DNA from: Candidatus Paracaedimonas acanthamoebae
GTDB lineage: Bacteria; Pseudomonadota; Alphaproteobacteria; Caedimonadales; Caedimonadaceae
NCBI GenBank assembly: GCA_000743035.1
Contig: CP008936.1
Span: forward strand, 1,260,001-1,292,000
Reading direction: 5' to 3'
Length of the DNA: 32,000 nucleotides
The notes beneath the pieces were generated by a model. The model saw nothing but the letters and a program-made list of their open reading frames with translations. It was not told the origin of the DNA and ran no database searches. This document shows, in pieces, positions 6,615 through 30,342 of the stretch. A program made the translations under genes and the position numbers. How positions within the stretch are numbered: the first letter of the stretch is position 1; each line of letters starts with the position of its first letter.

Positions 6615-8141
6615 ATGGCAACCAATAAAGAAGGTACACAACCAGCAGAGTTTAGTCCTGTGCGTGCTGCACTATGGCCTATCTATGCACACGAACTTAA
6701 AAAATTCTTGCCCATGGGCATGATTATGTTCTTTATTCTTTTTAATTATACTATTTTAAGAGATGTTAAAGACGTCCTTATTATGACAGCTCCTAACTCA
6801 GGCGCTGGAGTACTTAGCTTCTTAAAAGGCTGGGGTGTTATGCCATCCGCCATTTTGTTTGTTTTGCTTTATACAAAATTGTCTAATATTGTTAATCGTG
6901 AACGACTTTTTTATGGAATTGTCGTTGTGTTTATCGCTTTTTTTGGATTGTTTGCTTTTTACCTTTATCCAAATCGTGAACTTATTCACCCAAGCCTTGA
7001 AACAATTCAAAATCTTCAAGCAAATTATCCCAACCTTAAATGGATTTTCCCTATTTATGGTGTATGGACATACTCCTTGTTCTACGTCCTTGCTGAGCTT
7101 TGGGGGTCTGTCATGATTTCGCTTCTGTTCTGGCAATTTGCTAACGATATTACGCGAACTGAAGAAGCAAAGCGCTTTTATGCAATGTTCGGTTTAATTG
7201 CAAACGTTGCTCTCATCTTTTCAGGAACAACTGTTGAATACTTCTCAGAAATTAAAGATAAACTCCCTCCTGAAATTGATGCTTGGGGATATTCTTTGAA
7301 TTACATGATGGGCGCTGTTGTCCTTTGCGGTGTTGCAGCGATTGCGCTTTATTGGTGGGTTACAGAGTATGTTCTTACAGATCCTCGTTTCTACGATGCA
7401 TCTGCACCAAAAAATAAAAAAGAGAAGAAGGACAAGCCAAAATTAAGTGTTGGCGAGAGCTTTAAGTTGATCTTTAGTTCTCCTTACATTGGTTACATTG
7501 CAATTCTCGTATTAGCCTATGGTGTATCTATCAACCTTATTGAAGTTGTATGGAAAGACCAATTGAAGCAAGCTTTCCCAAATCCTAATGATTATGGTGC
7601 TTTCATGGGTAAATTCTCTCGTGCAACAGGTATCGTAACCATGCTTCTGATCTGGTTCACAAAAGGTATCGTACGTAAGTTTGGTTGGTTCACGGGTGCG
7701 ATCGTAACACCTGCTGTTTTGATTATTACAGGCGCGCTATTCTTTGCATTCGTGCTTTTCAAAGACGAGCTCACACCGCTTGTGGCAGGTTTTGGTCTCA
7801 CTGCAACCTTAATGGCAACCTATATTGGAGCGATTCAAAATATCCTCAGTAAAGGTACAAAGTACTCAAACTTTGACCCCACAAAAGAGATGGCTTACAT
7901 CCCTCTTGATCAAGAGCTCAAGGTTAAGGGTAAGGCTGCCGTTGATGTTATTGGTGGACGTTTAGGAAAAGCTGGTGGTGGTTATGTTCAACAGGGTCTC
8001 CTGATTGCAACAGCCGGCGATATTATGACAATTGCCCCCTACCTTGCTGGTGTTGTTGGTGTCGTTGTTGGTGCTTGGGTTATTGCTGTGAAGGGTCTTT
8101 CAAAGAAATATAATGCTCTTATCAAGAAAACAGCAGCTTAA
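6615..8141 (+). CDS. tlc: ADP/ATP translocase (nucleotide transport protein, Tlc/NTT family)
   Basis: 508 aa polytopic membrane protein. The N-terminus ...ELKKFLPMGMIMFFILFNYTILRDVKDVLIMTA... and ...YSLFYVLAELWGSVMISLLFWQFANDIT...AKRFYAMFGL... are the conserved Tlc/NTT blocks known from Rickettsia, Chlamydia and plastids. Confidence 0.9.
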   Translation: MATNKEGTQPAEFSPVRAALWPIYAHELKKFLPMGMIMFFILFNYTILRDVKDVLIMTAPNSGAGVLSFLKGWGVMPSAILFVLLYTKLSNIVNRERLFYGIVVVFIAFFGLFAFYLYPNRELIHPSLETIQNLQANYPNLKWIFPIYGVWTYSLFYVLAELWGSVMISLLFWQFANDITRTEEAKRFYAMFGLIANVALIFSGTTVEYFSEIKDKLPPEIDAWGYSLNYMMGAVVLCGVAAIALYWWVTEYVLTDPRFYDASAPKNKKEKKDKPKLSVGESFKLIFSSPYIGYIAILVLAYGVSINLIEVVWKDQLKQAFPNPNDYGAFMGKFSRATGIVTMLLIWFTKGIVRKFGWFTGAIVTPAVLIITGALFFAFVLFKDELTPLVAGFGLTATLMATYIGAIQNILSKGTKYSNFDPTKEMAYIPLDQELKVKGKAAVDVIGGRLGKAGGGYVQQGLLIATAGDIMTIAPYLAGVVGVVVGAWVIAVKGLSKKYNALIKKTAA

Positions 8142-23445: not shown

Positions 23446-23580
23446 TCACACATGATGGAAAATCTTCTGGCGCCTATTAACATTTTTAGGCTGCCTGAGA
23501 TCCTCGGCACAAGGCCGGGGATGACCTTGTGGGTGGTACTCTTGCAGCTCATCAGTTTTTAACCCTTTATTTCCAAACAT
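23446..23580 (-). CDS. small ORF (44 aa): MFGNKGLKTDELQEYHPQGHPRPCAEDLRQPKNVNRRQKIFHHV
   Basis: Below the ORF-track size cut-off; my own translation. A strong AAGGAGA SD lies 6 nt before the ATG at 23580. Its C-terminal half is encoded by the 67-nt repeat shared with ORF 24079..24429. Confidence 0.4.
   Translation of the reverse strand: MFGNKGLKTDELQEYHPQGHPRPCAEDLRQPKNVNRRQKIFHHV
23459..23525. repeat. 67-nt direct repeat, copy 1
   Basis: 64 of 67 nt are identical to 24149-24215, at an offset of exactly 690 bp. Mismatches are at 23471 and 23517-23518. Confidence 0.95.
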
Positions 23581-23870
23581 TTTTTTCTCCTTCTTTTGTT
23601 TTGTTCACCTTGATGAAATCATGAGTTCCTCTTCTTCTTTCCGAACACAAGACTTCTTTTTTTCTTAAGGATCAAGGGTTGGTTCCTCTTCATTTAAACC
23701 CTCCCCCCTTGCTTCTTAAGTTGTTCTCAATAAGGCTTAAACCTTGTGAGAATTTTTGTTATTTCTTCCTTTCTTTATCAAATTCCAATCTTGCCATCCT
23801 TGGGCCTGTCCCAAGGATCTCAAGAGACCGAAAGATCCATCATGTCACCAATCGTTTCCCTTCAGCATTT

Positions 23871-24079: not shown

Positions 24080-24429
24080 TATAAAGACGGTGAGGACAGA
24101 AACTTCTCCTTTGTCTCCTGGCCCCTTTTGTGCCTGCCACGTACGCTTAAAATCTTCTGGTGCCTATTAACATTTTTAGGCTGCCTGAGATCCTCGGCAC
24201 AAGGCCAAGGATGACGGCGAAGTAGCCATCTAATCCTGTCCTCATCAATCACCATTAGTTGCCAGTTGCCAGTTGCCAGTTGCCAGCTGCCTAAAAAGAA
24301 ATTTCCTAACTTCTTTACAATATCAAAGATCCAATTTTGATGTTTCTCTCTTTCCCTGGTACCAAGGGAAGGTAAGAACTTTTCCCCCATCTTCAACCTG
24401 AGTGAAGAATCAGAAGGTGTGGTGTACAT
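24079..24429 (-). CDS. hypothetical ORF (116 aa), longer paralogue of the 44-aa ORF; possibly decayed
   Basis: From the ORF track. It contains HPWPCAEDLRQPKNVNRHQKI, against HPRPCAEDLRQPKNVNRRQKI in ORF 23446..23580. Homology continues upstream (IDED versus TDEL) with a 3-nt indel. The SD is weak, the ATG is buried in the 8-bp-stem hairpin at 24424-24441, and the ORF runs through a heptamer repeat. Confidence 0.3.
   Translation of the reverse strand: MYTTPSDSSLRLKMGEKFLPSLGTREREKHQNWIFDIVKKLGNFFLGSWQLATGNWQLMVIDEDRIRWLLRRHPWPCAEDLRQPKNVNRHQKILSVRGRHKRGQETKEKFLSSPSL
24149..24215. repeat. 67-nt direct repeat, copy 2
   Basis: See copy 1 at 23459-23525. Confidence 0.95.
24257..24291. repeat. 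heptanucleotide tandem repeat (AGTTGCC)x4 plus one degenerate unit AGCTGCC
   Basis: Read directly: AGTTGCC at 24257, 24264, 24271 and 24278, and AGCTGCC at 24285. It lies inside ORF 24079..24429 and encodes ...GSWQLATGNWQL.... Confidence 0.95.
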
Positions 24430-24909: not shown

Positions 24910-25738
24910 ATGAAACTACGCTCTCTCCTGACTGCCATCTTGATCAATATCTATGTTCTTTCTCCTCTCTGGGGCACAGACCTGAGAGATGAGCAACAAG
25001 CTTTATCCTCAGCCGCTACTTCATATTTACTTAAAATGCTCCCTGACGATGTGATGGCCCTCATCCTTTCTTATGTCTCAGGTCCTACTCTCAATCGTTT
25101 ATGGGAAACAGGCGATAAGACAATGCAACAGAGATTATCCCAAAACGCCAAAGTTTTTGAGATAGGAAAGACCCAGAAACAACTCGTAGAGCTATCAACT
25201 TATAGGCTTCCTAAACCCAAACTTCCCTTTCATTTCTTAGAGGTCATAGTTTCTCGATATTCTGCTCTCATAAACCTAGATATATCCCGTAATCTCTGTG
25301 ACCAAGATGCCCTAGAAACATCTATACCCTCACTGACACACCTGAGGGCATTGAACCTATATGAATGCGGCTTAACAATATTGCCTCAGAATTTCTCAAA
25401 ACTCGTCAATCTCACTGAACTCAATGTAGGGTTTAATTGGTTTGTAGGTGGTGTTCTCCCTACTAAAATATTCACTAACGCAACTAATAACATTGATTAT
25501 AAGTGATTGTGGATTAACAACATTGCCTGAGAACTTACCGCAATTCGTCAAACTTACTTACCTAAATCTATCCTCTAATCGTTGTTTAGGTGATGATCTT
25601 AGGCCTCTCATTCCTTTATTAACCCTAAAACGTCTAAAAAGGGTAGAACTATCGGGTATGCACTTGACAAAGTCAAGCTTACCAGAGGAACTCCATCAAT
25701 ACCCTCATATCCTTCAAAACGTTGATTGGAAAAATTAA
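24910..25738 (+). pseudogene. eukaryote-like F-box plus leucine-rich-repeat protein, split by a +1 frameshift
   Basis: Track ORFs 24910..25506 and 25448..25738 overlap in different frames. F-box-like LPDDVMALILSYVSGPTLNRLW. LRRs LTHLRALNLYECGLTILPQNFSKLVNLTELNVGFN (frame 1) and LTQLITLIISDCGLTTLPENLPQFVKLTYLNLSSN (frame 2). Removing one A from the A4 run at 25465-25468 gives a continuous ...VLPTKYSLTQLITL... LRR register. Confidence 0.65.
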
Positions 25739-25957: not shown

Positions 25958-26663
25958 TTATTTTTTCGTTTTAATTTTATTTCTTTCATCTTGGGCCAAC
26001 TTATAGGCTTCCTGTCTTTCTAAAACAGCCTTTTGAAGAGCTTGAGAAAAATGAGTAATTTCTTGTTTTTTTGCAGCTGCAATACTTTAAACGTTTGCTT
26101 TTCTTTAACTGTTGCTTGAGCAGATGTCGTGATAAAGTTAGCTTTAGCATAAGCAAAAACGGCTTCTAAAAAATCTTTTCCGTGATGTAATTCTGATTTT
26201 GTTTTATTTTCGAGAATATCTAATGCATTTATCCATGATTTAAACTCTGGTTTTTCGCCAAATTGCCTTTTTGCTCCTTGGATGCCCACAATATCTTTAA
26301 TAGATTGAGTGAGGAGAGCTTTTACATTATTTACAAAATTTTTACATTATTTTTGGCTTCATTTAATCCTGGTGTGCCTAGATTTATTCCAGAAAATATT
26401 GCTGTGATATCTAATCTTTCATTGAGATTTGCAAGAGCTCCTTCTAATTTTTGTCGATCGACACTCTGTTCGACGACTGTAATGGCGGCTATAACGCCAT
26501 TTAAAGTACTGTCCAATACATGGCTTAATTTTTGATAATCTTCTTCTAAAACAGCTGATTTTAAAGCTTTTCCAGCATTATTTGTTGGAAGATTTACAGC
26601 CTCTGCATTGCTCAATCCACTGATAACAACACTCATAATAAAAAAGAAAAGATTTTTAAGCAT
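25958..26663 (-). pseudogene. secreted hypothetical protein gene broken into three frames
   Basis: Track ORFs 26331..26663 (signal peptide MLKNLFFFIMSVVISGLSNAEA) and 26020..26289, plus a third open frame that I translated to a stop at 25958-25960 (...KKQEITHFSQALQKAVLERQEAYKLAQDERNKIKTKK). Break 1 is at a 13-nt direct repeat spaced 20 nt apart (26320-26352). Break 2 is at the A7 run (complement of 26066-26072). Confidence 0.55.
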
Positions 26664-26739
26664 TTTGATATCCGATCGTTAATTAATTCCATAAGACTAT
26701 CAAATGCTTATTAAAAAATGGTTAAGTCCTCTTATCTGT

Positions 26740-27003
26740 CTAATGAAGGCTCAGAGAATAAGGCGTGTATTTAAACTCAGATGGTTTAATAAGGTTTACA
26801 TGGGAAACAGTTACTGAATGCATACGTCCCTCAATATTGTGCGCCCAAAAATTAAGAAATTTATGAAGTTCAGGAAAATTTGGTAAAAGATCATACTCTT
26901 GCCAGATAAACGTTTGTAAAATATCTGGATGATCGGGGAGATGATACAGGATTTCTGCTGTTGTTAGTCGATAATTTTGAAGTTGAAGGGCGAGATGTTT
27001 CAT
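26740..27003 (-). CDS. usg: Usg-family protein
   Basis: Track ORF trimmed to the ATG at 27003, with a GGAGG SD 6 nt upstream. YRLTTAEILYHLPDHPDILQTFIWQEYDLLPNFPELHKFLNFW...HSVTVSH matches my memory of alphaproteobacterial Usg (PF06233) proteins. Confidence 0.65.
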   Translation of the reverse strand: MKHLALQLQNYRLTTAEILYHLPDHPDILQTFIWQEYDLLPNFPELHKFLNFWAHNIEGRMHSVTVSHVNLIKPSEFKYTPYSLSLH

Positions 27004-27070
27004 CACAATCCTCCGTCTCTTTTATCTACACTTTTAGAATGCCATAAAATGTTAAAGAGTTTATTAAAAT

Positions 27071-27424
27071 TTAAGCAGCGGCAATTATCTGAATTTGACC
27101 CGGAAACTCAATCGTAATAACGCCTCCGATGTTACAGGAAAGGATTGATGCCTGATCTAAAGCAAACTCTTCACCAATAAGAACAGTTGGCACGCCAGGT
27201 ACCCATGATTCAATAGCCGGCACGCATTCTGTATCAACTCCTAGTGTTTCTGCTGCAAGAATTGAGCAAACAGAGAAACTTTCAACATTTACAAAAGGTA
27301 TAGCGCTACTTATATTCCCGACCATTCCCTCGCCTGCGATGACATTCCCAACAATTGTCATGGCACTCGGTGTTGCTCCGGCCGCGCACTGTACTAATGC
27401 CTCTGTCACAACTAAGGTTGCCAT
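27071..27424 (-). CDS. DUF4280 (PAAR-like) domain protein
   Basis: 117 aa. VVTEALVQCAAGATPS..., ...FVNVESFSVC... and ...ECVPAIESWVPGVPTVLIGEEFALDQASILSCNIGGVITIEFPGQ follow the DUF4280 motif order. The ATG lies 8 nt after the petC stop on the same strand. Confidence 0.7.
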   Translation of the reverse strand: MATLVVTEALVQCAAGATPSAMTIVGNVIAGEGMVGNISSAIPFVNVESFSVCSILAAETLGVDTECVPAIESWVPGVPTVLIGEEFALDQASILSCNIGGVITIEFPGQIQIIAAA

Positions 27425-27432
27425 TGCTCTCT

Positions 27433-28200
27433 CTATTCTTCAAGTCGACGCCAAGTTTGGCGTTTTATAAGCCCCATTAAAACAGTAAAAACTAAAAGAT
27501 ACGTTAAGATCTTGACGCCTAAATGCTTACGCTCCTCCATTTCAGGCTCTGATGCCCACGCCAAAAAAGTCACAACGTCATGCGCCATTTGATCAACGGT
27601 AGCCGGCGTTCCATCTGCATATTGAACAAGATGGTCTGAAAGAGGAGGCGCCATGGCAATTTGATGCCCGCTGAAATAAAGGTTATAAGACATCCCAGGC
27701 GCCAACTGAATACCTGAGGGCGGATCTGTATATCCCTTTAACAAGGCTTTCACGTAGTGAGGCCCTCCCTTACGCGCTTTAATGATCAAAGAAAGGTCTG
27801 GTGGATTTGCGCCATTATTAGCTGCCCTCGCTGCTTTCTCATTGACAAAGGGATTTGGAAAGTAATCTGAGGGCTTTCCCCCTCTTTTAATCGGATTCCC
27901 TTCTTCATCAACACCATCTTGCACCTCTTTTTGAGCTGCAATTGCTTTAATTTTAGCTTCACTAAATCCTAAAGCCTTGAGATGTCGGTAACTGATGTGG
28001 CTCAATCCATGGCATGTGGAGCACACTTGTTGATAGACTTGAAACCCTCTTTGAAGCTCAGCCCGATCAAACGTTCCAAATATCCTATCAAAGCTCCACT
28101 TTTCTTGAGGAAGAGGAGATTGTTGATTTGCACAAAGGACATCGCTGACCAACAAATTTAAAAAAACAATAAAAATTTCTCTTAAAAAACGGCGACTCAT
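27433..28200 (-). CDS. petC: cytochrome c1 (ubiquinol-cytochrome c reductase subunit)
   Basis: Signal peptide, haem-binding CSTCHG, a PPDLS motif and a C-terminal TM anchor. A 4-nt ATGA overlap with petB. Confidence 0.9.
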
Positions 28201-29438
28201 GAGTGTCCTCCAAACTCTCCACTAAGAGTAGATTTTTTTTGAAGGTTCTCGGGCAAAGGAAGGGGACGTTCAATACGATTCAAAATCGGCACCAAAATTA
28301 AGAAATGAATAAAATAATAAACAGTTGCTATCCTTCCAAGTATCAAAGGTAAACCCTCAGGTTTCTGGGAACCAACCCAGCCCAAAATTAAGCAATTGAT
28401 TAAAAAGATCCAAAACAAGATCTTATATAAGGGTCTAAAACGCGCACTTCGAATAGGGGAACGATCTAACCATGGCATTAAGGTTAAGATAAAAACGGCG
28501 CTAAACATTAAAACAACGCCTCCCAATTTATCCGGTACAGACCGTAAAATGGCATAATAGGGTAAGAAATACCACTCAGGCACAATATGTTCAGGCGTCA
28601 CAAGCGGATCAGCAGGAATATAATTATCTGGCTCTCCAAAAAAATTGGGCGCAAAAAAAACAAATGCCCCCCATATCAGCAATAAAACACCCAAACCTAA
28701 TAGATCTTTTACCGTGTAATAGGGATGAAATGGGATTTTATCTCCGGGCTTCTTTGCGTCAATACCAAGCGGATTATTGGAGCCATGTTGATGAAGGGCG
28801 ATTAAATGAAGGAAAACCATCCCCACAATCAAAAAAGGAAAAAGGTAATGTAAGGCAAAAAAACGGTTTAATGTTGGATTCGCAACAGAAAACCCACCCC
28901 ATAACCACGTTACAATGGGATCACCAATTAAAGGAATTGCTGAAAAAAGATTCGTGATGACGGTCGCGCCCCAATAACTCATTTGGCCCCACGGCAATAC
29001 ATATCCCATGAAGGCTGTTGCCATCATCAAGAGGAAAATAATCACGCCTAAAATCCATAAAAGCTCTCGCGGCGCTTTATAAGATCCATAATAAAGTCCT
29101 CGAAACATATGAATATAAACAACGATGAAGAACATAGAAGCGCCATTCATGTGAATATAACGGATCAACCAGCCATAATTGACCTCTCGCATAATGCGCT
29201 CAACGCTGTTAAAGGCATGATCCACATGGGGAGTATAGAACATTGCTAGGAAAATGCCCGTTAAAATCATAATAACTAACACAACTCCAGCAAGAGAGCC
29301 AAAATTCCACCAATAATTAAGATTCCGAGGTGTTGGATAGTCAACCAATTCCTTATTAATAAAAGAGAAAACTGGTAGACGCTCATCAACCCACTGAATA
29401 AATCCTGATTTCTTTTTTTCTGACGATGGCATCGACAT
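28197..29438 (-). CDS. petB: cytochrome b
   Basis: 413 aa. [29 protein letters not shown] and [13 protein letters not shown] are canonical cytochrome b motifs. Confidence 0.95.
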
Positions 29439-29446
29439 GGGGACTC

Positions 29447-30013
29447 CTAACCAACCTTTAACGTTGTTTCATTTAAAAATGTATAAGGCGGAACCTCGAG
29501 ATTTCGTGGCGCTGGCCCTCCCCGTACTCGTCCTGAAATATCATACACAGAACCATGGCAGGGACAATACCATCCGCCATACTGTCCTCGATTATCGCTG
29601 GGCTTTTGTCCAGATGGTACACATCCCAAATGCGTGCAGACGCCAACGACCACAAGCCATTGGGGATACTGTTTAAAGCGATCTACATCCAATTGAGGAT
29701 CAACCAGATCGTTAAGATTAACATTTTTAGCTTCTTGAATTTCTTGGGCCGTTCGATGACGAATAAACAACGGGCGTCCCCGCCACATAACGGTAATCGC
29801 CTGCCCTTCTTGAATAGGTTTAAGATCAATTTCAATAGACGCAAGAGCTAAAACATCGGCAGCAGGATTCATGCTTTTAACCAAAGGCCAGACAAAACCT
29901 GCAGTCCCCACAACACCCACAGCGCTGGTGGCCAAAATGAGGAAATCGCGCCTTGATTTATGCACAAGATCAGGTTGTTCTGGTTCACTTTTTAAAACTT
30001 CATCATTATGCAT
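29447..30013 (-). CDS. petA: ubiquinol-cytochrome c reductase Rieske iron-sulfur subunit
   Basis: Track ORF trimmed to MHNDEV... (ATG 30013, AAGGGGGG SD). Tat-like SRRDFL plus a TM segment. Rieske boxes CTHLGC and CPCHGS. Confidence 0.9.
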
Positions 30014-30342
30014 GCGCCCCCCTTTATGGTTGCAGATTCCTTTCTTTGTCTGAATAAATCTATAGGACAATCAAGGCATTTGAGCAATATGAATAAAAAG
30101 AGTCAGCGCTTAAAAATGCCGTCCCTCAATAGACTCCAACAAAAACTAAGGGCGGGAATAGATAATCACCAGAACCGCATAAGTCACTTGCATTCCCCCT
30201 ATCCGCATAACAATTTTTCATAAAACCTATACATCCTCCTTTGTCATTAAAAAATAAGATAATTATGTAAGATTTTAAATGCATGAATGTAGGATTTAGG
30301 ATACTTTGTATGCTTGTAACAATTATTAAGACATGCAAGCAT

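What the first reader, a model, noticed from the sequence alone, without database searches (positions are those of the whole stretch)
27071..27424. PAAR-like DUF4280 gene sits 8 nt behind petC, with no other secretion-machine gene nearby
Seen: the 117-aa product follows, in order, the motif pattern of DUF4280. The pattern is an N-terminal V-V-x-x-A-x-h-x-C-x-x-G-x-x-P-S, a central F-x-x-C, and a C-terminal C-x-P-x3-W-x-P-G-x-P-T-V-L-I-G-x3-A-L-x3-S-x-L-x-C-x2-G-G-x-I-x-I-x2-P-G-Q. Its ATG (27424) lies 8 nt after the petC stop (TAG, 27433-27435) on the same strand with no intervening hairpin, so it should be transcribed with petABC unless a promoter lies inside petC. Established: DUF4280 proteins are PAAR-like cones that cap the VgrG-type spike of type VI secretion and related contractile injection systems. 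Seen: no vgrG, hcp, sheath, baseplate or tss gene occurs in this 32 kb. Inference: three readings are possible. A spike-tip gene may have been captured by the respiratory bc1 operon, which would tie delivery to energy status. It may be an orphan of a system encoded elsewhere or since lost. Or DUF4280 may have a role here that is unrelated to secretion. Physical coupling of a spike-tip gene to a core respiratory operon is not an arrangement I know of.
Basis: partly seen in the sequence, partly recalled or inferred. Interest (0 to 1): 0.7.

Follow-up and report, generated by a model that had tools for sequence, protein, structure and literature searches.

The report
Stray T6SS spike-tip gene behind petC
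A small gene directly after the cytochrome bc1 genes of an amoeba symbiont encodes the sharp tip of a type VI secretion needle whose other genes are reported to lie scattered elsewhere in such genomes; the family is known, and only its conserved position behind a respiratory operon is mildly unusual.

Summary
Window 27071-27424 (-) encodes a 117-aa protein that matches Pfam DUF4280 end to end (62.7 bits; cut-off 26.3). It starts 8 nt after the petC stop, and nothing in the 32 kb resembles a T6SS or contractile-injection gene.

The window matches 'Candidatus Paracaedimonas acanthamoebae' (Holosporales), and the protein is AIL13264.1. A 2021 paper places that accession in one orthogroup with a lone DUF4280 gene that it lists among T6SS genes. 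The same paper reports that T6SS core genes in these families lie at four or more separate sites.

- **Family evidence:** the four DUF4280 cysteines are invariant. The predicted fold best matches a solved DUF4280 domain sitting on a VgrG spike.
- **Relatives outside Holosporales:** 12 of 15 loci carry T6SS genes within 8 kb, and none carries pet genes.
- **Best reading:** this is the spike tip of a T6SS encoded elsewhere, probably expressed as a passenger of petABC.
- **What is new:** petABC-DUF4280 adjacency also occurs in a second Holosporales lineage whose tip protein is only 36% identical. I found no paper describing this.
- **Not verified:** I could not check the T6SS in this genome directly, and co-transcription is inferred.

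Interest is low to moderate.

The parts
27071..27424 (-). DUF4280 (PAAR-like) gene, 117 aa. It has four invariant cysteines (C13, C53, C67, C97), no histidine and no N- or C-terminal extension. It is the predicted T6SS spike tip.
   Evidence: Pfam PF14107 at 62.7 bits over the full length. The cysteines are invariant in 9, 11 and 76 sequences. The AF2 model (pLDDT 74) best matches 9jg8_B, a DUF4280 domain on VgrG. dN/dS is 0.05-0.26. The protein is identical to AIL13264.1 / IM40_06775.
27425..27432 (-). The 8-nt petC-DUF4280 spacer AGAGAGCA. It is purine-rich and resembles a Shine-Dalgarno sequence.
   Evidence: Read directly from the sequence. The equivalent spacers in relatives are 8, 9, 9 and 9 nt, all purine-rich, and 32 and 44 nt in the distant lineage. 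No hairpin forms.
27433..28200 (-). petC (cytochrome c1). Its last 39 codons (27436-27552) show raised conservation at synonymous sites.
   Evidence: Pfam Cytochrom_C1 at 321 bits. Codon invariance among amino-acid-invariant codons is 17/30 in the last 39 codons against 47/155 elsewhere. One-sided Fisher p = 0.006, but the region was chosen after looking at the data.
28197..29438 (-). petB (cytochrome b). It overlaps petC by 4 nt.
   Evidence: ORF list. The orthologue is annotated Cytochrome_B and Cytochrom_B_C in relatives. Identity to relatives is 75-94%.
29447..30070 (-). petA (Rieske iron-sulfur subunit), the first gene of the operon.
   Evidence: ORF list. The orthologue is annotated UCR_Fe-S_N and Rieske in relatives.
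27007..27070 (-). The 64-nt AT-rich spacer between DUF4280 and usg. It holds a conserved motif, TTTTAATAAA-CTCTTTAACATTTTATGGCATT (27038-27069), that may be the usg promoter or operator. No terminator hairpin is present.
   Evidence: The motif is conserved in L001, L005 and L009, even where the L005 spacer has grown to 349 nt. A 72%-similar copy lies in the next spacer at 26685-26716 (D3). The fold is not significant.
26740..27006 (-). Usg-family gene, the downstream neighbour. It is kept in the Paracaedimonas clade but not in the distant Holosporales lineage.
   Evidence: Pfam Usg at 125.5 bits. It is present in L001-L009 and absent from L025 and L028, where a His_Phos_1 gene follows instead.

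Best explanation
The gene encodes the PAAR-like spike tip of a type VI secretion system. As established for the family, a small beta-cone held together by a metal ion on four cysteines caps the blunt end of the VgrG trimer. This sharpens the spike that the contracting sheath drives through a target membrane.

In Holosporales the T6SS gene cluster is reported to be broken up and spread over the genome. In the lineage of this amoeba symbiont, the tip gene came to lie directly behind petC. There it is most likely expressed as a passenger of the petABC (cytochrome bc1) transcript, either by read-through or from a signal inside the 3' end of petC.

It has no effector domain, so it would serve as a bare tip or an adaptor. 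It is not a subunit of the bc1 complex.

- **Shown here:** family membership, cysteine conservation, PAAR-like predicted fold, purifying selection, conserved adjacency to petC, and T6SS context of relatives outside Holosporales.
- **Inferred:** metal binding, VgrG binding, co-transcription, and the presence of the partner T6SS in this genome, which rests on the literature only.
For: **Family**
- DUF4280 at 62.7 bits over the full profile.
- C13, C53, C67 and C97 are invariant across 76 homologues. They are the four cysteines that define DUF4280 and were shown to bind metal in IglG (PMC5349215).
- All four align to cysteines of 9jg8_B in a profile search of the PDB (E = 3.1e-10).

**Fold**
- The AF2 model has pLDDT 74 and pTM 0.69.
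- The best Foldseek hit is 9jg8_B, BtpeA bound to the VgrG spike (E = 2.6e-4, probability 1.00, TM 0.63).
- The next hits are weak (E = 0.4 or above) but are also spike tips: phage KP1, T4 gp5.4 PAAR and PVC Pvc10.

**Context of relatives outside Holosporales**
- L030 (46% identical) lies directly after a VgrG gene and near VipA, VipB and Hcp.
- 12 of 15 genome loci (L010-L024) carry T6SS genes within 8 kb, and none carries pet genes.

**Literature**
- T6SS is conserved in almost all Holosporineae except Holospora (PMC11909080).
- Its core genes lie at four or more loci in Bodocaedibacteraceae, Paracaedibacteraceae and Caedimonadaceae (PMC8163844).
- That paper lists a lone DUF4280 gene under T6SS genes.
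- Its orthogroup includes AIL13264.1, which is this protein. It contains none of the four Holospora genomes in the data set.

**Operon**
- The genes share a strand. Gaps are 8-9 nt in five species-level relatives and 32-44 nt in a distant lineage.
- There is no terminator or significant hairpin.
Against: - I could not inspect the rest of this genome. The presence of vgrG, tssBC and the other core genes in 'Ca. Paracaedimonas acanthamoebae' rests on family-level statements in two papers, not on a test made here.
- The adjacency to petC survives in a lineage whose tip protein is only 36% identical and whose other neighbours differ. Neutral hitch-hiking does not require such persistence.
- The unlinked orthologue in 'Ca. 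Bodocaedibacter' had zero RNA-seq reads, so expression of this family in symbionts is not assured.
- The AF2 model has only moderate confidence, and residues 41-70 have pLDDT 53-65.
- Raised synonymous conservation at the 3' end of petC leaves an internal promoter open. In that case the gene would not be a simple operon passenger.
Confidence: 0.8

Rival explanations
1. Regulatory coupling. The tip gene is kept behind petC by selection, because placing the spike tip under the respiratory operon ties T6SS firing to respiratory or energy state. An example would be during the extracellular or phagosomal stage, when the symbiont cannot import host ATP.
For: - The petABC-DUF4280 adjacency is kept in two Holosporales lineages that differ in all other neighbours. 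Between them PetB is 75% identical, PetC 52-60% and DUF4280 36%.
- The spacers are tight and purine-rich.
- The window also encodes a TLC ATP/ADP translocase, so energy supply does depend on life stage.
- DUF4280-bearing T6SS is used for phagosome escape in Francisella (PMC5349215).
Against: - There are no expression data.
- A gene without its own promoter is hard to move, so the adjacency can persist neutrally.
- The Bodocaedibacter orthologue, CPBP_01201, does not appear to follow pet genes. CPBP_01198 is a permease and CPBP_01202 is a 72-aa hypothetical protein.
- Whether the tip is limiting for this T6SS is unknown.
Confidence: 0.1
2. The protein has been recruited to a role unrelated to secretion and connected with cytochrome bc1. 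It might act as a small cysteine-rich metal-binding factor for assembly or regulation of the complex.
For: Only the conserved, tight adjacency to petC and the four metal-type cysteines.
Against: - The whole DUF4280 profile is retained, including the residues that form the cone.
- The closest relatives outside Holosporales sit in T6SS clusters.
- The orthogroup is present in the T6SS-bearing Holosporales families and absent from Holospora, which lacks T6SS.
- The N-terminus, MATLVVTEALV..., has no visible signal peptide that would take it to the periplasmic face of bc1. This was read by eye and no predictor was run.
- From established knowledge, bacterial bc1 complexes have three subunits and no known DUF4280 partner.
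Confidence: 0.04
3. The gene is a decaying remnant of a lost contractile system and has no present function.
For: - It is isolated from all other secretion genes.
- The Bodocaedibacter orthologue had zero reads.
Against: - Purifying selection: dN/dS is 0.05-0.26 while dS is about 1 or more.
- The reading frame is intact in every relative, and the cysteines and the start context are invariant.
- The T6SS is reported as conserved in these families.
Confidence: 0.04

Closest known systems
DUF4280 / PAAR_H single-domain PAAR-like proteins (Pfam PF14107)
   Same: A full-length profile match, four conserved cysteines, a length of about 117 aa and a predicted conical beta fold. Relatives are encoded next to vgrG or inside T6SS clusters.
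   Different: Here the gene is encoded away from any T6SS gene and directly behind petC. The Paracaedimonas clade sits on a long branch, at most 46% identical to relatives outside Holosporales.
Francisella IglG (T6SS subtype ii PAAR-like protein)
   Same: It has the DUF4280 core with four cysteines and belongs to an intracellular bacterium with a non-canonical T6SS. The nearest Polyangia relatives lie between IglE-like and IglI-family genes, as in the Francisella island.
   Different: It scores only 17.9 bits against the IglG model, whose cut-off is 200. It lacks the N-terminal helical extension that binds IglF, because the DUF4280 domain starts at residue 5.
BtpeA N-terminal DUF4280 domain on the VgrG spike (PDB 9jg8/9jg9, Bacteroides T6SS)
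   Same: It is the best match by sequence profile (E = 3.1e-10) and by fold (TM 0.63). All four cysteines align.
   Different: BtpeA is a 608-aa effector that carries a toxin domain behind the cone. The window protein is the cone alone.
Canonical PAAR proteins (PF05488; for example T4 gp5.4 and PVC Pvc10)
   Same: The same cone-on-spike architecture. These proteins appear among the fold hits, but only weakly, at E = 2.1-2.6.
   Different: It has no PAAR motifs, no PF05488 hit at E up to 1, and no histidine at all. The His3-Cys zinc site is therefore replaced by Cys4.
Lone DUF4280 gene CPBP_01201 of 'Ca. Bodocaedibacter vickermanii' (PMC8163844)
   Same: It is in the same published orthogroup as this protein, is listed among T6SS genes, and is separate from the other T6SS loci.
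   Different: It is 130 aa and, judging by the numbering and annotation of its neighbours, is not next to pet genes. It had zero RNA-seq reads.

Membership tests
DUF4280 (PF14107) PAAR-like family | Match to the Pfam model above its gathering score, over the whole domain | tested here: met
   62.7 bits against a cut-off of 26.3, profile positions 1-109 of 109.
DUF4280 (PF14107) PAAR-like family | Four conserved cysteines, the metal site defined in IglG (PMC5349215) | tested here: met
   C13, C53, C67 and C97 are invariant in alignments of 9, 11 and 76 sequences. They align to cysteines of 9jg8_B.
DUF4280 (PF14107) PAAR-like family | Conical, PAAR-like all-beta fold | tested here: met
   The AF2 model (pLDDT 74, pTM 0.69) is all-beta. 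The one significant Foldseek hit is the spike-tip domain 9jg8_B (E = 2.6e-4). The weaker hits KP1, gp5.4 and Pvc10 are also spike tips. Model confidence is only moderate.
DUF4280 (PF14107) PAAR-like family | Binds a metal ion and caps a VgrG trimer | not testable with these tools
   This needs purified protein or a complex structure.
Type VI secretion system (Holosporales dispersed type) | The same genome encodes VgrG, sheath (TssB/C), tube, baseplate and membrane complex | not tested
The evidence is from the literature only, which reports T6SS at four or more loci in Caedimonadaceae and Paracaedibacteraceae.
Type VI secretion system (Holosporales dispersed type) | Homologues of the tip protein are encoded with T6SS genes in other organisms | tested here: met
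   L030 lies directly after VgrG and near VipA, VipB and Hcp. 12 of 15 loci outside Holosporales have T6SS genes within 8 kb. IglE_N, IglI, TssK, TssM and TssG flank the Polyangia relatives.
Canonical PAAR (PF05488) | Three Pro-Ala-Ala-Arg motifs and a His3-Cys zinc site | tested here: not met
   There is no PF05488 hit at E up to 1. The sequence contains no PAAR string and no histidine.
IglG (NCBIfam NF041248) | Score above the model cut-off, and the N-terminal helical extension that binds IglF | tested here: not met
   17.9 bits against a cut-off of 200. The match covers only the C-terminal DUF4280 part of the model, positions 58-170.
petABC (cytochrome bc1) operon | Same strand, short gap and no terminator, so transcribed with petABC | tested here: inconclusive
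   The gap is 8 nt with no hairpin, and short gaps are conserved. Synonymous constraint at the 3' end of petC leaves an internal promoter possible. No transcript data were available.
Cytochrome bc1 complex subunit | Homology to a known bc1 subunit or assembly factor | tested here: not met
   The only family matches are DUF4280 and, weakly, IglG. No pet genes lie near any homologue outside Holosporales.

The most novel reading that the evidence does not exclude
Selection has kept the spike-tip gene of the Holosporales T6SS behind petABC across deep lineages so that the tip, which is lost with the spike at each firing, is made in step with the respiratory chain. Firing would then be licensed when the bacterium respires on its own, outside the host or in the phagosome, rather than when it lives on imported host ATP. 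This would be a direct wiring of a secretion weapon to respiratory gene expression.
Probability: 0.1. Interest if true: 0.6.

Novelty: new member of a known kind. Interest (0 to 1): 0.27.

Why it matters
The result assigns a function to a gene annotated only as 'hypothetical protein'. It would also give the spike tip its name in the reduced, dispersed T6SS of Holosporales symbionts. The review of the group calls that system the most credible candidate for host interaction and notes that it has no experimental data.

The conserved petABC-DUF4280 adjacency is a simple, testable handle on how a fragmented secretion system is expressed in a reduced genome. It is a small addition to what is known, not a new kind of system.

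Tried and rejected
- **Retrieving the source genome:** an exact-protein look-up found no record, so I could not search it for T6SS genes.
- **T6SS on the symbiont's plasmids:** a tblastn of TssC against PLSDB returned 579 records. None of the 15 listed was from this organism, and Paracaedimonas was not among the ten commonest genera.
- **Per-genome T6SS tables:** searches of two papers' supplements gave only family-level statements and genome lists.
- **Whether Holospora or Bodocaedibacter retain petABC:** literature searches gave nothing usable.
- **Naming further Holosporales orthologues:** the third protein search returned no named Odyssella or Paracaedibacter hits.
- **NJ tree of 76 homologues:** it does not resolve whether the two Holosporales clades are sisters, because both are long branches.
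- **Rejected, canonical PAAR:** no motif and no histidine.
- **Rejected, IglG membership:** 17.9 bits against a cut-off of 200.
- **Rejected, a divergent T6SS gene hidden among the unannotated window ORFs:** NCBIfam found no such hit.

Full report
**1. What is in the sequence**

On the minus strand the window carries four tightly packed genes followed by a fifth:
- petA, 29447-30070
- petB, 28197-29438
- petC, 27433-28200
- a 117-aa ORF, 27071-27424
- an 88-aa ORF, 26740-27006

The petC stop codon (TAG) occupies 27433-27435. The ATG of the 117-aa ORF is at 27424, so the gap is the 8 nt AGAGAGCA.

Pfam gives these assignments:
- petC is Cytochrom_C1, at 321 bits.
- The 88-aa protein is Usg, at 125 bits.
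- The 117-aa protein is DUF4280, with E = 5.9e-17 and 62.7 bits against a cut-off of 26.3, covering profile positions 1-109 of 109.

No other ORF of 100 aa or more in the 32 kb hits any T6SS, phage-tail or contractile-injection family in Pfam or NCBIfam. A tblastn with nine T6SS proteins taken from related loci finds nothing in the window.

**2. Where the window comes from**

The protein is 100% identical to IM40_06775 of 'Candidatus Paracaedimonas acanthamoebae', on a contig of 1,722,347 bp. Its accession is AIL13264.1.

This organism was formerly 'Ca. Caedibacter acanthamoebae'. It is a cytoplasmic symbiont of Acanthamoeba in the Caedimonadaceae, Holosporales (PMC11909080; genome size also given).

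The rest of the window fits that lifestyle. It holds a TLC ATP/ADP translocase, leucine-rich-repeat proteins and about 40% G+C.

**3. Is it a real PAAR-like protein?**

- *Cysteines.* C13, C53, C67 and C97 are invariant among nine close orthologues, eleven more diverse sequences and 76 homologues. Four conserved cysteines that coordinate a metal are the hallmark of DUF4280, as established for Francisella IglG (PMC5349215).
- *Solved structures by sequence.* A profile of the 76 sequences finds one convincing match, 9jg8_B (E = 3.1e-10). All four cysteines align to cysteines of that chain.
- *Predicted fold.* An AlphaFold2 model built on that alignment is all-beta, with mean pLDDT 74 and pTM 0.69.
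- *Solved structures by fold.* The best match is again 9jg8_B, BtpeA bound to the VgrG spike of a T6SS (E = 2.6e-4, TM 0.63). The next matches are weak (E = 0.4-2.6). They are the tip protein of Klebsiella phage KP1, T4 gp5.4 PAAR and the PVC tip Pvc10.
- *Families it does not belong to.* It is not a canonical PAAR protein. It has no PF05488 hit, no PAAR motif and no histidine. It is not IglG either, scoring 17.9 bits against a cut-off of 200, with no N-terminal extension.
- *Selection.* Pairwise dN/dS among five orthologues is 0.05-0.26. The gene is under purifying selection but evolves two to three times faster than petB or petC.

**4. What relatives show**

*Close orthologues.* Orthologues at 61-86% identity occur in 'Caedibacter sp.' metagenome-assembled genomes and in metagenomes. 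Every locus has petA-petB-petC-DUF4280, and nearly all then have usg.

*A distant Holosporales lineage.* P0186 and P0013 are only 36% identical to the window protein. In their loci PetB is 75% identical and PetC 52-60%. This lineage also has petA-petB-petC-DUF4280, although every other neighbour differs.

*Spacers.* The petC-DUF4280 gaps are 8, 8, 9, 9 and 9 nt in the close clade, and 32 and 44 nt in the distant lineage.

*Relatives outside Holosporales.* These behave differently:
- None of 15 genome loci has a pet gene, and 12 of them have T6SS genes within 8 kb.
- One 46%-identical relative lies directly after a VgrG gene and near VipA, VipB and Hcp.
- The Polyangia relatives share the order TssK, TssM, IglE-like, an acyl-CoA-ligase-like ORF, DUF4280, IglI-family, TssG.

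The family context is therefore T6SS. The position behind petC is found only in the Holosporales loci examined.

**5. What the literature adds**

- The review of the group states that the T6SS is conserved in almost all sequenced Holosporineae except Holospora, and that it is probably non-standard (PMC11909080).
- Their Supplementary Table 3 lists a lone 'DUF4280 domain-containing protein' (CPBP_01201) under the T6SS genes.
- Their orthogroup for that gene contains AIL13264.1, which is the window protein. It also contains orthologues from Odyssella, both Paracaedibacter species, Caedimonas and UBA6184, but none from the four Holospora genomes in the data set.
- The paper's main text and the seven supplementary files held never use the word PAAR.
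- I found no mention of the adjacency to petC in the papers I could search.
- Isolated PAAR-type genes are not rare. Only 62% have a vgrG gene within 20 genes (PMC8651086).

**6. Most likely mechanism**

The gene most likely encodes the tip of the dispersed Holosporales T6SS. When the cluster broke up, the tip gene came to lie behind petC. It has stayed there, probably transcribed with petABC.

Evidence for co-transcription is indirect:
- the genes share a strand;
- the gaps are short and conserved;
- the spacer is purine-rich and resembles a Shine-Dalgarno sequence;
- there is no terminator or significant hairpin.

One result complicates this. Synonymous sites in the last 39 codons of petC are unusually conserved: 17 of 30 codons against 47 of 155 elsewhere (one-sided Fisher p = 0.006). 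The region was chosen after looking at the data. The signal could mark an internal promoter or a translation-initiation element. The stretch also encodes the membrane anchor of cytochrome c1, so constraint on codon choice there is a third possible cause.

**7. Rivals**

- *Selected coupling of tip supply to respiration.* This is possible and would be the interesting case. Only the persistence of the adjacency supports it. The Bodocaedibacter orthologue does not seem to follow pet genes.
- *A bc1-related role.* Nothing supports it beyond the adjacency.
- *A decaying remnant.* This is contradicted by purifying selection and by the intact frames in all relatives.

**8. Limits**

- I could not read the rest of this genome, so the partner T6SS is documented only at family level.
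- Metal binding, VgrG binding and transcription are all inferred.
- The tree of this 117-aa family does not resolve whether the two Holosporales clades are sisters. A single ancestral move behind petC is therefore likely but not proven.

**9. Verdict**

This is a correctly spotted, real PAAR-like gene in an unusual place. Its explanation is largely ordinary: it is a stray part of a known, scattered secretion system. The conserved link to petABC, which I did not find described, is a modest new observation.

Noticed in passing
window 27436-27552 (-), the last 39 codons of petC: Synonymous sites are more conserved here than in the rest of petC across five species: 17/30 codons against 47/155 (Fisher p = 0.006, region chosen post hoc). 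This could be an internal promoter or translation-initiation signal for the DUF4280 gene, or codon constraint in the membrane anchor.
   Followed up: partly
window 27038-27069 and 26685-26716: A 32-nt AT-rich motif, TTTTAATAA...TTATGG(C/A)ATT on the minus strand, recurs at 72% identity in two successive spacers, upstream of usg and of the next ORF (26331-26663). The copy upstream of usg is conserved in relatives even where the spacer has grown to 349 nt (L005). It is a candidate promoter or operator.
   Followed up: partly
window 23459-23525, 24149-24215, and the inverted partial copy 23795-23836: A 67-nt repeat (96% identical copies 690 nt apart, plus an inverted 42-nt copy) lies in a gene-poor stretch at about 23.3-24.9 kb that has only dubious ORFs. 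It may be a small mobile or repeat element, or debris of decayed genes.
   Followed up: no
window 24910-25506 (+) and 25448-25738 (+): Two leucine-rich-repeat ORFs overlap by 59 nt in different frames. This looks like one LRR gene split by a frameshift. Relatives carry intact LRR genes of 365-369 aa nearby (L001, L002). Function not examined.
   Followed up: no
L010 5843-10287, and the equivalent regions of L012, L013, L015, L016, L019 and L020: The nearest relatives outside Holosporales (Polyangia/Myxococcales) sit in a Francisella-island-like T6SS cluster. The order is TssK, TssM, IglE_N lipoprotein, a 571-aa acyl-CoA-ligase-like ORF, DUF4280, an IglI-family protein (215 bits), then TssG. 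The ligase-like ORF directly upstream of the tip gene is unexplained.
   Followed up: partly
L032 1-44: In a third divergent lineage (P0011, 39% identical), the tip gene is preceded by a GC-rich hairpin, CTCCCCGC-GCAG-GCGGGGAG, that looks like a terminator. The contig ends there, so the upstream gene is unknown.
   Followed up: no
L009 8001-8357 compared with L007: Between two close relatives (petB dN 0.031, dS 0.55) the tip gene has dN 0.20, about six times the pet genes. The tip protein evolves fast in this branch.
   Followed up: no
window 6615-8141 (+): A TLC ATP/ADP translocase (673 bits) is encoded here, which indicates that the bacterium imports host ATP. This bears on any idea that links the tip gene to energy status.
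   Followed up: no
PMC8163844, Supplementary Table 3: The unlinked DUF4280 orthologue of 'Ca. Bodocaedibacter vickermanii' (CPBP_01201) had 0 RNA-seq reads, while every other listed T6SS gene had 12-133 reads.
   Followed up: no
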